This document shows positions 287-4,544 of a stretch of DNA of 4,544 nucleotides, piece after piece. Origin of the DNA: a virus. Lineage: Duplodnaviria > Heunggongvirae > Uroviricota > Caudoviricetes. The number at the start of each line of letters is the position of its first letter. Position 1 is the stretch's first letter. Under the pieces are notes generated by a model. It did no database searches. It had not been told where the DNA came from and saw only the letters and a program-made list of their open reading frames with translations. The position numbers were made by a program, and so were the translations under genes. Where the stretch lies: the IMG/VR virus record IMGVR_UViG_3300029229_000043, positions 1 to 4,544 of that record, one strand, 5' to 3'.

Positions 287-451
287 ATGAGAGGACTTGC
301 ATACAATCCCGGCATTCTTCCGGCAGAAATGATTATTCGCCAACGCGTAAAGCCAATGCCATCGAGAGAGGAATTGCTTAAGAGAAATTCTTTTCCATCA
401 GTGAATCAAAACAAATATCTGAATGCGATGTTGCGGAGTGGGAAGAAATGA
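287..451 (+). CDS. small basic hypothetical protein (54 aa)
   Basis: ATG 287 is preceded by GAGGA (275-279) at about 7 nt. In-frame ATGs at 254 and 269 lack an RBS and would overlap the upstream gene. Stop TGA 449-451 overlaps the next start (ATGA). Net charge about +8 by my count. Confidence 0.45.
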
Positions 452-987
452 AACAAATGTCACTAATTGAGATGGATGGATTCCTGAAAGGTAAATGCAT
501 CCCAAGCGATTTAAAGGTTAACGAAACAAACGCTGAATATCTGGTGCGTAAATTTGCTGAAGCGGAGGCCAAGTGCGCGGCGCTGGCGGCGGAGAGTGCG
601 CTGGCTCGTAAGGCAGTTCAGGCATTCTGCGATGTTGTTGGCGACAACACCGAGGTTATCTGTGAGGCGGTTGGGAGAGATGGCGTTCTGGTTATTTTGG
701 AGGCCATGAAGGCAACAGGAAATATGCCAGCCACCGATGCTTTCCTGGCTGAAGTGAAGACTGAAGCACGCAAGGAGGGCGCTTACTTTGTGGCGAACAG
801 AATGCTGGCTGCCTGGGAAGCTGGTTTTATTGATGATACTGCGAAGAACGCCGCGGATATTGCCCGGATGATTCTTACCTCTACTGAGTTTATGGCTAAT
901 GCGCCGGAAGGCGATTTTGACCGCTCATTCTCTGATGGCGTTCTCGAAGATATCGCCGCCCAGCTTCGCAAAGGAGGCAACCAGTGA
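448..987 (+). CDS. hypothetical protein, acidic and Ala/Glu-rich (179 aa)
   Basis: ATG 448 overlaps the upstream stop (ATGA); an alternative ATG lies at 457. Stop TGA 985-987 overlaps the GTG start of the next gene. About 29 acidic vs 20 basic residues by my count. No catalytic motif recognised. Confidence 0.6.
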
Positions 988-1712
988 GCAAGATTGACTA
1001 TCAGGCACTGCGTGAGGCGGCAGAGAAAGCAACGTGTGGCGAGTGGTCGCTCGAATATGGAGATGGCCGATTTGATGGTGATGATGCACTAATTCATCGT
1101 GAAGTTGCTGGATATATTCCCATTTGCAGAATTGAAGGAGCGCATCCAGAAAGCCGTTTCTATGAAGATTTCCAAATGGAGCAGCAGGCCAATGCTGAAT
1201 TCATCGCCGCAGCCAATCCAGCTACCGTGCTGGCACTGCTGGATGAACGGGAAAGAAACCTGCAATACATCAAAAGCCGCGATCAGGAGAACGAGGATAT
1301 TGCGCTAACGGTAGGGAAGCTGCGTGTTGAGCTGGAAGCCGCAGAGAACAACCTTATTGATAGTGAGTGCCATGTTGCTGAACTGGAAGAAGCGCTACGC
1401 GATAAGCAGGCGTTACTTGAAGCATCAGAGAAGCGCATAGCAGAACTGGAAGCGCGGGAAATAAAACCAGCCAAAGGCGAAGTTCTTGTCGTTGTTTCTG
1501 GTTTTACTGGTTGCGGAAAAAGCGCCATTGCCGGGGAAATAGAAATCGCGATGAAGGCTATTGGTGTACCGGTTAAGTGGACTAATGGCGATGCAGAAAA
1601 GCGCATGACTGGCGCTGACTGGCTGACAGCGATTGAGATGTACAAACCAACTGTGCGCATCGTGGAAGTTAATGTGCCACGCGTCGCTGGCATTCGCATC
1701 AAAGGAGAGTGA
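984..1712 (+). CDS. Ead/Ea22-like prophage protein with central coiled coil and C-terminal Walker-A-like segment (242 aa)
   Basis: GTG 984 with AGGAGG (972-977) 6 nt upstream. The N-terminus [21 protein letters not shown] matches my recollection of the conserved N-module of Ead/Ea22-like proteins. Residues ~100-160 are E/A/L-rich heptad-like (coiled coil). The C-terminal ~80 aa contain VLVVVSGFTGCGKS (nt 1482-1523). Stop TGA 1710-1712. Confidence 0.65.
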   Translation: MSKIDYQALREAAEKATCGEWSLEYGDGRFDGDDALIHREVAGYIPICRIEGAHPESRFYEDFQMEQQANAEFIAAANPATVLALLDERERNLQYIKSRDQENEDIALTVGKLRVELEAAENNLIDSECHVAELEEALRDKQALLEASEKRIAELEAREIKPAKGEVLVVVSGFTGCGKSAIAGEIEIAMKAIGVPVKWTNGDAEKRMTGADWLTAIEMYKPTVRIVEVNVPRVAGIRIKGE

Positions 1713-1713
1713 T

Positions 1714-1945
1714 ATGAGCGCTATAACCAAAGAACGTATCGAATTATTCATTAAAAATCCGCTTGATAACGGACTTACTCGTGGCGAACAAATGGAACTG
1801 GCACGAATTGCACTGGCATCACTGGAAGCAGAGCCTGTAAGCCAAACTTACAACTTGCCAGAATTAATCGAAGGGATGGAAGTTTCCATTGATGTAAGCA
1901 CTTGTGATGCTGATTTAGGTAATCGCTATTTCGGTACCGTCACCG
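1714..1945 (+). CDS. hypothetical protein, 5' part; probably the N-terminal portion of the DUF551 gene, interrupted by the N-run
   Basis: ATG 1714 lies 1 nt after the upstream stop, with AAAGGAGAG (1701-1709) as RBS. The frame stays open into the N-run at 1946. The ATG at 1633 from the ORF track would overlap the upstream gene by 80 nt and has no RBS. Confidence 0.55.
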
Positions 1946-1955
1946 NNNNNNNNNN
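1946..1955. other. assembly gap (10 N)
   Basis: Run of N characters. The reading frame before the gap (phase 1) and after it (phase 0) do not match for a literal 10-nt gap, so the true gap length is probably not 10. Confidence 0.95.
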
Positions 1956-2246
1956 TTAGAACTTGATACTGCCAAGAATGGTTACATCCTCCTGGTTCAG
2001 GACGCAGAGCCAAACTTCGATATAAATGGCAACTCTCCGGCAACTCCGGATGGTTGGATTCCGGTAAGCGAAAGGATGCCGGAACCTTATGAATACGTTC
2101 TTGTAACTGATGGTTTTGATGGCTGTGAGGTTATGCGTGTTAATACAGATGGCTACTGGGGGCCAGCAAAGAGTTTATATCCAGGTAGTATTACCCACTG
2201 GATGCCACTGCCAGCAGCACCGCAGCAGGAGGTTAATCGTGGCTAA
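1956..2246 (+). CDS. DUF551 domain protein, 3' part (96 codons after the gap)
   Basis: Open frame from the gap edge to TAA 2244-2246. The translation ...PDGWIPVSERMPEPYEYVLVTDGFDGCEVMRVNTDGYWGPAKSLYPGSITHWMPLPAAPQQE matches the DUF551 pattern as I recall it (W-I-x-V-x-E-R-x-P, VLV, THWMPLP). Not in the supplied ORF track because it has no start codon after the gap. Confidence 0.7.
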   Translation, partial: LELDTAKNGYILLVQDAEPNFDINGNSPATPDGWIPVSERMPEPYEYVLVTDGFDGCEVMRVNTDGYWGPAKSLYPGSITHWMPLPAAPQQEVNRG

Positions 2247-2857: not shown

Positions 2858-3070
2858 ATGCCAAAAATACGCTACGACCTTGAAGATATGAGAGATAACT
2901 CAGCTAATTTTCCGAAAGAGGTTAAATTTCTCATGCATAAGTATGGTTGCGCCAGGAGGGATATAGTTATCGACAGTCAGCACCCTTGCGGCGAGGATGT
3001 AATTTTCATTCGCGGTAAATGGAAAGGGTATCTTGACGAGAGTTTTTACGATGAATTTGATGGACTTTGA
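2858..3070 (+). CDS. hypothetical protein (70 aa)
   Basis: ATG 2858 with AAGG (2848-2851) upstream. The alternative GTG 2837 overlaps the upstream stop (GTGA). Stop TGA 3068-3070 is followed 6 nt later by a hairpin. No motif recognised. Confidence 0.5.
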   Translation: MPKIRYDLEDMRDNSANFPKEVKFLMHKYGCARRDIVIDSQHPCGEDVIFIRGKWKGYLDESFYDEFDGL

Positions 3071-3075
3071 ATACT

Positions 3076-3101
3076 GCCGCCAACTATGGCGGCTTTATTT
3101 T
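3076..3101 (+). terminator. candidate rho-independent terminator
   Basis: GCCGCCA (3076-3082) pairs perfectly with TGGCGGC (3087-3093) around a 4-nt loop ACTA, giving a 7-bp stem with 6 GC pairs, followed by TTTATTTT (3094-3101). It starts 6 nt after the stop of the upstream gene. Confidence 0.55.
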
Positions 3102-3105
3102 GCAT

Positions 3106-3137
3106 GGTACTATTACCACAACGGTAACTATTACCAC
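3106..3137 (+). repeat. tandem direct repeat GGTA(A)CTATTACCAC x2 immediately upstream of terS
   Basis: Copy 1 is GGTACTATTACCAC (3106-3119) and copy 2 is GGTAACTATTACCAC (3123-3137). The 10-bp core CTATTACCAC is identical, with an 18-bp period. It lies between the hairpin and the terS start. Confidence 0.6.
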
Positions 3138-3144
3138 GGTGGTT

Positions 3145-3741
3145 ATGATGCCTGCTGAACCTAAAACCTATAAACGCAAATCAACGCAATTTAAGCCACT
3201 AACAGCAATGCAGGAGGCTTATTGCCAGTCATACATCAAAACGCCTGAAAATCAGACTCAGGCTGCGATTAACGCAGGATTCTCCCCAAATACAGCGGCA
3301 GTTAAAGCCAGTGTCATGATGCGCGATGAACGCATTCAGAAACGGATTGCCGAGTTGATGGAGGAGCGCAACAAACGAATGCGCGTCAGTGCTGATTACG
3401 TTCTCATGCGCCTGGTGGAGATCGACCAGATGGACGTGATCGACATCCTCAACGACGATGGGAGCCTTAAGCCAATCCGCGAGTGGCCGAAAATCTGGCG
3501 CACTACGCTTAGCGGCTTTGATCTGTCATCGACCATCATGAACATGAACGAGGATTCGATAGAGACAATCCTCAAAAAAATTAAATGGCCTGACAAGGTG
3601 AAGAACCTCGAACTGATTGGTAAGCACGTCGACGTCAACGCATTCAAAGAACGCCTGGATGTTAATGTGAATGTGACAATTGCTGATCGCATAGCAGCAG
3701 CCAGGAAGCGACTCAAAGAACGTCAGGATGGTAATCAGTGA
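3145..3741 (+). CDS. terS: terminase small subunit (Terminase_2-like)
   Basis: ATG 3145 and ATG 3148 are both in frame; GGTGG (3138-3142) gives better spacing for 3148. The translation has an N-terminal HTH-like segment LTAMQEAYCQSYIKTPENQTQAAINAGFSPNTAA and a C-terminal ...KNLELIGKHVDVNAF, typical of small terminase subunits of this family. Stop TGA 3739-3741 overlaps the next start. The TTG 3067 extension in the ORF track reads through the terminator and repeat and is rejected. Confidence 0.8.
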   Translation: MMPAEPKTYKRKSTQFKPLTAMQEAYCQSYIKTPENQTQAAINAGFSPNTAAVKASVMMRDERIQKRIAELMEERNKRMRVSADYVLMRLVEIDQMDVIDILNDDGSLKPIREWPKIWRTTLSGFDLSSTIMNMNEDSIETILKKIKWPDKVKNLELIGKHVDVNAFKERLDVNVNVTIADRIAAARKRLKERQDGNQ

Positions 3742-4544
3742 CAGATACAGCGTTATCTCCTGAAGAGCAGTTAATCGAGGATATTGCAGGGTTCACTCAC
3801 GATCCGCTTGGCTATGCCCTCTATGCGTTCCCGTGGGGGGAAGAGGGGACTGAACTGGCACATGCTACCGGCCCACGTCAGTGGCAGGCTGATGCGTTCC
3901 GAGAGATACGTGATCACCTGCAGAATCCAGAGACGCGCTATCAGCCGCTTATGTTGGCACGCGCTTCTGGTCACGGTATTGGTAAATCCGCATTCATCTC
4001 AATGCTGATCAACTGGGGCATGTCCACTTGCGAGGATTGTAAGGTCGTGGTGACCGCCAACACCGACAACCAGCTACGAACGAAGACCTGGCCGGAAATT
4101 ATCAAGTGGTCGAACCTTGCTATCACGAAAGACTGGTTTACCTGTACCGCTACCGCGATGTACAGCAATGACCCTGGGCACGACAAGCGGTGGCGGGCTG
4201 ACGCAATACCCTGGTCTGAGCACAACACTGAGGCATTCGCCGGACTACACAACGAGCGCAAACGCATCATCGTGGTATTCGATGAAGCGTCGAACATTGC
4301 GGATCTGGTGTGGGAAGTTGCTGAGGGTGCGCTTACGGACGAAGACACTGAGATTATCTGGGTGGCGTTCGGAAACCCTACACGTAACACCGGGCGTTTT
4401 CGCGAATGTTTCCGCAAATATAAACACCGCTGGAAAACTGCGCAGATTGACAGCCGGACGGTGGAAGGCACTAACAAACAGCAGTTGCAGAAATGGGTTG
4501 ATGACTACGGGGAAGACAGCGACTTCGTTAAAATCCGTGTGCGC
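3738..4544 (+). CDS. terL: terminase large subunit, N-terminal ATPase domain (partial, continues past window end)
   Basis: GTG 3738 overlaps the terS stop (GTGA); the frame is open for 269 codons to the window edge. Walker A LMLARASGHGIGKS (nt 3948-3989) and Walker B with catalytic Glu IIVVFDEAS (nt 4266-4292). Position directly after terS. Absent from the ORF track only because no stop occurs in the window. Confidence 0.85.
   Translation, partial: MTDTALSPEEQLIEDIAGFTHDPLGYALYAFPWGEEGTELAHATGPRQWQADAFREIRDHLQNPETRYQPLMLARASGHGIGKSAFISMLINWGMSTCEDCKVVVTANTDNQLRTKTWPEIIKWSNLAITKDWFTCTATAMYSNDPGHDKRWRADAIPWSEHNTEAFAGLHNERKRIIVVFDEASNIADLVWEVAEGALTDEDTEIIWVAFGNPTRNTGRFRECFRKYKHRWKTAQIDSRTVEGTNKQQLQKWVDDYGEDSDFVKIRVR

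What the first reader, a model, noticed from the sequence alone, without database searches (positions are those of the whole stretch)
984..1712. Ea22-like coiled-coil protein with a truncated Walker-A C-terminal module
The C-terminal ~80 aa start with a hydrophobic strand plus GFTGCGKS (GxxxxGKS) followed by a helix and IGVPV. This is the layout of the N-terminus of small nucleotide kinases, yet only about 60 residues follow, too few for a complete P-loop NTPase fold. Ea22-family proteins are known for swappable C-terminal modules, so this may be an uncharacterised effector head on a conserved N-domain and coiled-coil scaffold. Function unknown.
Basis: partly seen in the sequence, partly recalled or inferred. 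Interest (0 to 1): 0.55.

Follow-up and report, generated by a model that had tools for sequence, protein, structure and literature searches.

The report
Ea22-like phage protein, mini P-loop head
This prophage gene encodes an Ea22-type scaffold (N-domain plus coiled coil) carrying a self-contained, roughly 69-residue domain with a perfectly conserved nucleotide-binding-type (Walker A) motif; this domain belongs to a widespread, undescribed phage family that also exists as a free-standing 68-135-residue protein and may be a natural 'minimal P-loop'.

Summary
CDS 984..1712 (+, 242 aa) has a Pfam Ead/Ea22 N-domain and coiled coil (aa 2-156, E 1.5e-36). Its C-terminus runs hydrophobic strand, GFTGCGKS (aa 173-180), helix, IGVPV.

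"Truncated" is the wrong word. Residues 165-233 are a complete, mobile evolutionary unit:
- It has 443 cluster representatives at 50% identity.
- It sits at the C-terminus, N-terminus or middle of unrelated mosaic phage proteins.
- It also occurs as stand-alone 68-135-aa proteins in prophages of Alpha-, Beta- and Gammaproteobacteria and in jumbo phages.
- In 251 distinct sequences GxxGxGK[S/T]A and a strand-terminal Glu (E228, Walker-B-like) are essentially invariant.
- The + frame is under purifying selection.

The most likely mechanism is inferred, not shown: the coiled coil clusters several mini P-loops, which bind a phosphate-bearing ligand at composite sites. The gene is already catalogued as "ead/Ea22-like"; the domain is not described. 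I rate it a new variant of a known kind, of moderate to good interest.

The parts
971..977 (+). Shine-Dalgarno AAGGAGG, 6 nt upstream of the GTG start
   Evidence: Read directly from the sequence.
984..1712 (+). CDS of the Ea22-like protein: 242 aa plus stop at 1710-1712. The GTG start overlaps the TGA of the upstream gene (GTGA, 984-987).
   Evidence: The identical protein, EFI86880.1, is named 'ead/Ea22-like family protein' and found on 55 contigs. PGAP annotates the same CDS in E. coli MS 196-1.
984..1268 (+). N-terminal Ead/Ea22 globular domain (aa 1 to about 95)
   Evidence: PF13935 match over aa 2-156, E 1.5e-36. The heptad score is low up to about aa 85.
1269..1457 (+). Acidic coiled-coil stalk (about aa 96-158, net charge -8); hotspot of recombination junctions
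   Evidence: Heptad scan scores 0.4-0.57 here against 0.03-0.1 elsewhere. Weak Pfam coiled-coil hits. Homology junctions cluster at aa 110-150. DNA matches to other phages start at nt 1194, 1337 and 1431.
1476..1682 (+). Autonomous mini P-loop module, G165-R233 (69 aa). Layout: beta1, Walker A, alpha1, beta2, alpha2, alpha3, YKP turn, beta3.
   Evidence: Conserved block with sharp edges. 443 representatives at 50% clustering. Stand-alone proteins of 68-135 aa. AlphaFold pLDDT 87.6 with helices at 179-192, 202-209 and 213-220. Purifying selection in this frame.
1500..1523 (+). Walker A motif GFTGCGKS (aa 173-180)
   Evidence: In 251 distinct sequences: G173 248, G176 250, G178 248, K179 249, S180 249 plus 1 Thr, A181 249.
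1653..1667 (+). VRIVE (aa 224-228): hydrophobic strand ending in an invariant Glu; candidate Walker B
   Evidence: E228 is present in 246 of 251 sequences and the other 5 are gaps. It is an invariant column in the 101-sequence alignment A5. Its role is inferred.
1683..1709 (+). Variable C-terminal tail (aa 234-242)
   Evidence: Poorly conserved columns; pLDDT about 50.

Best explanation
The gene encodes an early, non-structural phage accessory protein built from three exchangeable parts: an Ead/Ea22 N-domain, an acidic coiled-coil stalk, and a C-terminal 'mini P-loop' head (aa 165-233). The head is not a broken kinase. It is a complete member of an undescribed family of ~65-70-residue domains that phages of Proteobacteria use fused to various scaffolds or as a free-standing 68-135-aa protein. 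Proposed mechanism (inferred): the stalk oligomerises the protein, as shown experimentally for lambda and P27 Ea22, which are tetramers, and so brings two to four heads together. Each head offers a classical phosphate-binding loop (K179/S180 at the N-terminus of helix alpha1) and an acidic residue at the end of the neighbouring strand (E228, Walker-B-like, for Mg2+). One head lacks strands 4 and 5 and every base-recognition or lid element of real NTPases. The ligand site is therefore probably completed between protomers, as in SIMIBI-class dimers and in designed oligomeric 'P-loop prototypes'. The ligand would be a phosphate-bearing molecule such as an NTP or other nucleotide, polyphosphate or nucleic-acid backbone. 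Binding or slow hydrolysis would modulate a host process early in infection. Shown here: the architecture, the autonomy, mobility and spread of the domain, motif invariance and purifying selection. Inferred: oligomerisation of this protein, ligand binding, composite sites and the biological target.
Confidence: 0.45

Rival explanations
1. The head is a ligand-independent protein-protein interaction or oligomerisation domain, like the dimeric lambda Ea22 CTD. The Gly-rich loop and the conserved Lys/Ser/Glu serve folding or partner recognition, not phosphate binding.
Against: A purely structural loop would not need invariant Lys-Ser/Thr-Ala after the glycines across sequences only 30-35% identical, nor an invariant acid at the end of a hydrophobic strand. 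The only family signals are P-loop families.
Confidence: 0.25
2. The head is a mimic or sponge. Either it is a decoy of the N-terminal half of a host or defence P-loop NTPase that poisons its assembly, or it is an oligomeric sponge that sequesters a nucleotide second messenger. In both cases it would be an anti-defence or host-takeover module.
For: Stand-alone copies lie in prophage early accessory regions next to DNA methyltransferases and Lar-type restriction-alleviation genes. Lar domains are fused to the module in 2 of 149 representatives. The Yersinia phage copy lies next to an annotated anti-restriction gene. Small size, oligomer-friendly architecture and rapid module shuffling are typical of counter-defence genes (own knowledge).
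Against: There is no hit to any defence-related model (PADLOC). There is no functional data. The neighbourhood evidence rests on a handful of loci. Early accessory regions hold many kinds of genes.
Confidence: 0.15
3. The head is a degenerate, truncated remnant of a small nucleotide kinase (APS-kinase-like) with no function of its own, which is the literal reading of the first-stage interpretation.
For: The most consistent weak hit is APS_kinase positions 3-40 of 152, including an N-G-D that recalls the kinase's D-G-D after strand 2 (the D-G-D comparison is from my own knowledge).
Against: The boundaries are sharp and conserved. There are 443 representative clusters, free-standing ORFs of 68-80 aa, purifying selection and spread over three proteobacterial classes. 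HMMER found no full-length kinase relative. N201-G202-D203 is not conserved in the wider family.
Confidence: 0.03

Closest known systems
Lambda Ea22 and the Ea22 variants V1-V3 of Stx phages (Pfam PF13935; PMC10834534, PMC7093339)
   Same: They share the N-terminal Ead/Ea22 signature and a central coiled coil, a mosaic and exchangeable C-terminal domain, and early accessory-gene status in temperate phages of E. coli.
   Different: The C-terminal head is unrelated. The lambda CTD is a beta1-beta2-alpha1-beta3-beta4-alpha2 dimer with no P-loop, and the query gives no PDB sequence match to it. tblastn of the module hit 28 phage records, none listed from lambda, 933W, Phi24B or P27, so it appears to be an additional head type. 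The gene here lies in the early-right operon between the replication genes and terS of a Uetakevirus-like prophage, not between exo and xis.
P-loop NTPases, especially SIMIBI-class (MinD/ParA, Get3/ArsA, SRP54/FtsY, GPN-loop GTPases, dethiobiotin synthetase) and small P-loop kinases (APS kinase, gluconate kinase)
   Different: The domain is only 65-70 residues with three putative strands. It has no strands 4 and 5, no base-specificity motif, no lid or NMP domain and no deviant Walker A lysine. No score reaches significance.
Designed 'P-loop prototypes' / phosphate-loop proteins (PDB 6c2u/6c2v; Vyas et al., doi 10.1101/2020.07.30.228619) and the de novo designed ATPase 9jix
   Same: Very small beta-(P-loop)-alpha based proteins, some with a helix preceding beta1, that act as oligomers. 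They are among the best PDB sequence hits of the family profile (E 0.005-0.01).
   Different: Those are laboratory constructs derived from consensus or ancestral sequences. This is a natural, selected family with additional conserved elements (E185/E187, E205-K206, D212-W213, the Y220-K-P222 turn). No binding data exist for it.
PHROG families 250, 11761 and 31825 (unknown function)
   Same: They already group phage proteins containing this module.
   Different: They carry no annotation, do not delimit the domain and do not note the Walker A motif.

Membership tests
Ead/Ea22-like family (Pfam PF13935) | HMM match above the gathering threshold | tested here: met
   126.5 bits against a cutoff of 27, E 1.5e-36, aa 2-156 covering profile positions 1-139 of 139.
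Ead/Ea22-like family (Pfam PF13935) | Short N-domain followed by a central coiled coil | tested here: met
   The heptad scan is high at about aa 85-160 and low elsewhere. This is a crude method.
Ead/Ea22-like family (Pfam PF13935) | Tetramer in solution | not testable with these tools
   Known for lambda and P27 Ea22 only (PMC10834534).
Lambda-type Ea22 (sensu stricto) | Lambda-like C-terminal domain (beta1-beta2-alpha1-beta3-beta4-alpha2 dimer) | tested here: not met
   No PDB sequence match to the lambda CTD even at E<=10. The C-terminus belongs to a different family.
Lambda-type Ea22 (sensu stricto) | Location between exo and xis in the early-left operon | tested here: not met
   Here the gene is downstream of the replication genes and upstream of terS in the rightward operon.
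P-loop NTPase fold | [quoted passage not shown] | tested here: met
   GFTGCGKS at aa 173-180 follows EVLVVVS. The AlphaFold helix starts at K179. The motif is invariant in 251 sequences. The strand itself was not called by DSSP.
P-loop NTPase fold | Walker B: hydrophobic strand ending in Asp/Glu | tested here: inconclusive
   VRIVE at aa 224-228 has an invariant E228. Its spatial proximity to the P-loop is not demonstrated.
P-loop NTPase fold | Core of at least five strands sandwiched by helices (about 130 residues or more) | tested here: not met
   The domain is 65-70 residues and whole proteins of 68-80 aa exist. At most three strand-like segments are present.
P-loop NTPase fold | Significant sequence-profile or structural match to a P-loop family | tested here: not met
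P-loop NTPase fold | Mg2+-dependent nucleotide binding or hydrolysis | not testable with these tools
   Needs biochemistry.
Small nucleotide kinases (APS kinase PF01583 and similar) | Full kinase domain with substrate-binding and lid regions; HMM above cutoff | tested here: not met
   13.6-16 bits against a cutoff of 21.1, covering only profile positions 3-40 of 152.
Known anti-phage defence or anti-defence associated families (PADLOC) | Match to a defence-system model | tested here: not met
   Nothing for the module. The full-length protein gives only a chance-level Avs2 hit at E 0.009 over the coiled coil.

The most novel reading that the evidence does not exclude
The module is a natural minimal P-loop: a roughly 68-residue protein that forms a working Mg2+-nucleotide (or other phospho-ligand) site only by homo-oligomerisation. 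It would be the natural counterpart of the designed 'P-loop prototypes', used by phages either free or mounted on coiled-coil scaffolds, for example to sequester or hydrolyse a nucleotide that matters for host defence or the lysis-lysogeny decision.
Probability: 0.2. Interest if true: 0.85.

Novelty: new variant of a known kind. Interest (0 to 1): 0.58.

Why it matters
If the module binds nucleotides, it would be by far the smallest natural P-loop unit known to me; natural P-loop NTPases are usually at least about 150 residues (own knowledge). The full-text search found only designed minimal P-loops. That would turn a question so far addressed only with designed proteins, namely how little polypeptide a functional P-loop needs and whether oligomerisation can replace the missing fold, into a simple experiment on a natural family. 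For phage biology it defines a further, widespread head type of the mosaic Ea22 family. The head is present in about 7% of complete E. coli genomes, on prophages and phage-plasmids. It gives a concrete, mutable motif (K179, S180, E228) for probing what these long-enigmatic early genes do. If it binds nothing, it is still a well-delimited new domain family worth a database entry.

Tried and rejected
1. A homologue search seeded with the Ralstonia phage RSF1 copy alone found nothing because no k-mer words were shared; that search was wasted.
2. I tested a Rosetta-stone idea: that proteins encoded just upstream of the stand-alone copies (4-nt start/stop overlap) match the N-terminal parts of fused versions. 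BLASTP gave no hits at E<1e-3, so I dropped it.
3. Mean-field DCA on 245 sequences, meant to test strand pairing, had an effective number of about 66. The top couplings reflect subfamily signatures (positions 203, 230-233), so it is uninformative.
4. Foldseek against PDB gave no credible match.
5. PADLOC and NCBIfam gave nothing above chance or cutoffs.
6. The two long antisense ORFs over the module (1283..1702 and 1425..1751, minus strand) are rejected as genes. They are interrupted by stops in other copies, and substitutions follow the + frame.
7. 'Truncated kinase remnant' is rejected on the conservation evidence.
8. A separately translated head from an internal start is unlikely; I saw no start codon with a ribosome-binding site near aa 158-166 when reading the sequence.

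Full report
**1. What is in the sequence**

The window is a stretch of a temperate podovirus-like (Uetakevirus, phiV10/epsilon15-type) prophage of E. coli. Megablast gives 95-98% identity to phages PAS61, O157 typing phages 9 and 10, phiv142-3 and phiV10. An identical copy of the module sits in the chromosome of E. coli MS 196-1. In that prophage the gene order is:
- integrase;
- a leftward early operon (phosphatase, MT-A70 methyltransferase, Bet, PD-(D/E)XK nuclease);
- the repressor region;
- a rightward operon: DnaT-like, replication protein P, DUF1064, a hypothetical protein, the ead/Ea22-like gene, DUF551, ASCH, two small ORFs, terS, terL, portal and capsid.

The finding's ORF is real: 984..1712 on the + strand, 242 aa. 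Its GTG start overlaps the upstream stop as GTGA, and AAGGAGG lies 6 nt upstream. The identical 242-aa protein is in NCBI as 'ead/Ea22-like family protein' on 55 contigs.

**2. Checking the observation**

- Pfam PF13935 (Ead/Ea22-like) matches aa 2-156 at 126.5 bits against a cutoff of 27.
- A crude heptad scan gives high scores only for about aa 85-160, so an N-domain followed by a coiled coil is supported.
- GFTGCGKS is aa 173-180 (nt 1500-1523), preceded by EVLVVVS and followed by a helix and IGVPV. Sixty-two residues follow S180.
- A bare GxxxxGK[ST] arises in 0.45% of shuffles of this protein. The window also contains one out-of-frame chance match (GLMTTGKT, nt 4495-4518). The motif alone would therefore be weak evidence; what matters is its conservation.

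**3. The C-terminus is an autonomous, mobile domain, not a truncation**

An exhaustive HMMER search with aa 158-242 against 1.84 billion cluster representatives found 443 proteins at E<=1e-3 and 350 at E<=1e-10.

- *Boundaries and position.* The match always covers the same ~70 residues (aa 164-233). Among the 149 representatives listed (the query's own close relative P0043 excluded), which gave 154 matched stretches, the module is C-terminal in 130 stretches, near the N-terminus in 11 and internal in 12. Host proteins range from 110 to 623 aa.
- *Partners.* Only 28 of the 149 have the Ea22 N-domain. Other partners are mostly unannotated; a few carry Lar, zinc-ribbon or DUF4406 domains.
- *Junctions.* Homology to the query begins at scattered points in the coiled coil (aa 70-150, peaking at 130-150). 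In 102 of 191 carriers more than 25 residues of unrelated N-terminal sequence precede the junction. The megablast piece boundaries at nt 1194, 1337 and 1431 agree.
- *Distant copies.* tblastn finds copies in Burkholderia phage BcepC6B gp37 (58% identity, N-terminal position). It also finds them in Burkholderia/Ralstonia jumbo phages (35-41%, internal) and in a Serratia jumbo phage, where the module heads a 107-aa protein.
- *Stand-alone proteins.* A profile built from these distant copies retrieved 106 proteins, nearly all stand-alone proteins of 68-135 aa. A third are 70-79 aa. Several lie on contigs of 0.3-6.9 Mb with genes on both sides.
- *Minimal unit.* It is about 65-70 residues, starting 2-4 residues before the first strand and ending just after the third.
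- *Host range.* Copies occur in Gamma-, Beta- and Alphaproteobacteria.
- *Prevalence in E. coli.* The module's DNA is in 365 of 5,426 complete genomes, with 314 chromosomal and 81 plasmid places.

**4. What is conserved**

- In 128 close relatives the block G165-R233 is nearly invariant.
- In a 101-sequence alignment spanning 29-87% identity to the query, the invariant columns are G173, G176, G178, K179, A181 and E228. S180, E185, I186, E187, A192, G194, E205, D212, Y220, P222 and V224 are conserved in at least 90%.
- Over all 251 distinct sequences gathered: G173 248, G176 250, G178 248, K179 249, S180 249 plus one Thr, A181 249, E185 245, and E228 246 with the rest gaps.

This is the substitution pattern of a functional Walker A, GK[ST], plus an acid at the end of a hydrophobic strand (VRIVE, Walker-B-like).

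The + frame is under purifying selection. In the Flyfo phage copy 38 of 46 substitutions are at third positions, with 35 synonymous against 7 non-synonymous codon changes. In the Yersinia phage copy the counts are 32 against 12. The antisense ORFs are interrupted in other copies.

**5. Relation to known families**

- No curated family covers the module. Pfam, NCBIfam and PADLOC give only sub-threshold hits.
- PHROGs 250, 11761 and 31825 contain it but have no assigned function.
- Scanning all 101 alignment members, the weak hits are almost exclusively P-loop families matched at their first ~20-45 positions: AAA_16 in 74 members, AAA_18 in 62, nSTAND_NTPase5 in 39, APS_kinase in 38.
- Profile searches of PDB sequences behave the same way, with a best E of 0.005-0.01. 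The top hits include the designed 'phosphate-loop protein' 6c2u, a de novo designed ATPase 9jix, ArsA and UreG.
- HMMER found no full-size NTPase relative, so the family is isolated in sequence space.

**6. Structure prediction**

With 33 sequences AlphaFold2 gave pLDDT 83.4, with two of five models above 80. With the 101-sequence alignment it gave pLDDT 87.6 and pTM 0.74, with all five models at 78-88.

Helices are at aa 179-192, 202-209 and 213-220. Helix alpha1 thus starts exactly at the Walker A lysine, after an extended segment and the glycine-rich loop, as in P-loop proteins. However, DSSP called no beta-strand in either model.

- Foldseek against PDB found nothing (best E 5.6, TM about 0.2).

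I read this as weak support for a P-loop-like beta-loop-alpha-beta-alpha substructure and as clear evidence against a complete NTPase core. A covariation test of strand pairing was uninformative.

**7. Context and literature**

Lambda Ea22 is pro-lysogenic and tetrameric, with a dimeric CTD of a unique fold. Ea22 proteins of Stx phages share the N-terminal and coiled-coil part but carry unrelated CTDs (V1, V2 with DUF551, V3). No function or P-loop is mentioned (PMC10834534; PMC8614690). None of the listed phage records carrying our module is lambda, 933W, Phi24B or P27, so this appears to be a further head type.

Stand-alone copies lie in prophage early accessory regions between recombination genes (ERF, RecT, YqaJ, RdgC) and excisionase/integrase. 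They are often next to DNA methyltransferases and Lar-type genes. That is positionally equivalent to lambda's exo-xis region.

Designed P-loop prototypes of 40-110 residues bind NTPs, polyphosphate and ssDNA as dynamic oligomers, and a helix preceding beta1 improves their solubility (doi 10.1101/2020.07.30.228619). A full-text search found no description of a natural minimal P-loop.

**8. Interpretation**

*Shown here:*
- the three-part architecture;
- that the head is a discrete, autonomous, widely shuffled domain under purifying selection;
- that it has an invariant Walker A and a strand-terminal Glu;
- that it is too small to be a canonical NTPase;
- that no described family covers it.

*Inferred (confidence about 0.45):* the coiled coil clusters several heads, which bind a phosphate-bearing ligand through K179, S180 and E228 at sites completed between protomers, by analogy with SIMIBI dimers and the designed prototypes.

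*Rivals:* a ligand-independent interaction or oligomerisation head (0.25); a decoy or sponge with an anti-defence role (0.15); a dead kinase remnant (0.03, effectively refuted).

**9. Verdict**

The head is swappable, conserved and Walker-A-bearing, as proposed; it is not truncated and not demonstrably a kinase. The gene is already catalogued. The domain is undescribed and is best filed as a new variant of a known kind: a mini P-loop-motif domain. Interest is moderate to good, because simple biochemistry on a 70-residue protein would settle whether nature uses a minimal P-loop.

Noticed in passing
window 448-987 (+): The upstream gene (179 aa, PHROGs 614 and 14548) shares its C-terminal ~145 residues with PHROG 368 (profile positions 111-239). 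The N-terminal half of PHROG 368 (positions 1-144) matches the Ea22 N-domain of the finding's protein. So this neighbour looks like another 'head' that is fused to an Ea22 scaffold in other phages.
   Followed up: partly
window 1714-2246 (+), N-run at 1946-1955: The downstream gene is a DUF551 protein interrupted by a 10-base run of N. DUF551 is the C-terminal head of Ea22 variant V2 in Stx phages (PMC10834534). Its N-terminal part hits PHROG 60, which also starts with an Ea22 N-domain. In E. coli MS 196-1 this gene is annotated as two fragments, one a pseudogene. Three consecutive genes are thus built from Ea22-associated modules.
   Followed up: partly
window 1946-1955 and 2550-2569: Two runs of N (10 and 20 bases) mask sequence. 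The second lies just upstream of the 86-aa 'transcriptional regulator' ORF (PHROG 536) at 2580-2840, whose true start may therefore be hidden.
   Followed up: no
window 1283-1702 and 1425-1751 (- strand): Two long antisense ORFs (139 and 108 aa) overlap the module. They are interrupted by stops in diverged copies, and substitutions follow the + frame, so they are spurious.
   Followed up: yes
window 4495-4518 (+ strand, out of the terL frame): A second GxxxxGK[ST] match (GLMTTGKT) occurs in a non-coding frame inside the large terminase gene. It shows that the bare motif arises by chance at window scale.
   Followed up: yes
window 984-987; L008, L010-L012 around 6001-6004: The gene start overlaps the upstream stop as GTGA. 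Stand-alone homologues in Burkholderia and Achromobacter prophages show the same 4-nt ATGA or GTGA overlap with an upstream gene of variable N-terminus. In Achromobacter those upstream proteins share a C-terminal tail (...AEYERGHADGWAAGWDQAIKQPQADKDGGGDA). No homology was found between these upstream proteins and the N-terminal parts of the fused versions.
   Followed up: partly
window 3067-3741 (+): The small terminase (PF03592, E 1e-29) is annotated from the TTG at 3067 in E. coli MS 196-1. That start gives an odd N-terminus rich in Thr, Val and Ile (…GTITTTVTITTVVMM…). The Pfam match begins only after the ATG at 3145, so the real start is uncertain.
   Followed up: no
L019 (MAG 'Collinsella sp.' scaffold, 3,030 bp): A contig binned as an actinobacterial Collinsella MAG carries a 99% identical copy of the E. 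coli-type module. This is most likely a mis-binned enterobacterial phage contig.
   Followed up: no
L007 2108-2740 (Yersinia phage fHe-Yen8-01 gene 078): This is a different scaffold: a long coiled coil without a detectable Ea22 N-domain match to the query, carrying the same head at 82% identity. It lies directly downstream of a gene annotated as an anti-restriction, particle-associated protein.
   Followed up: no
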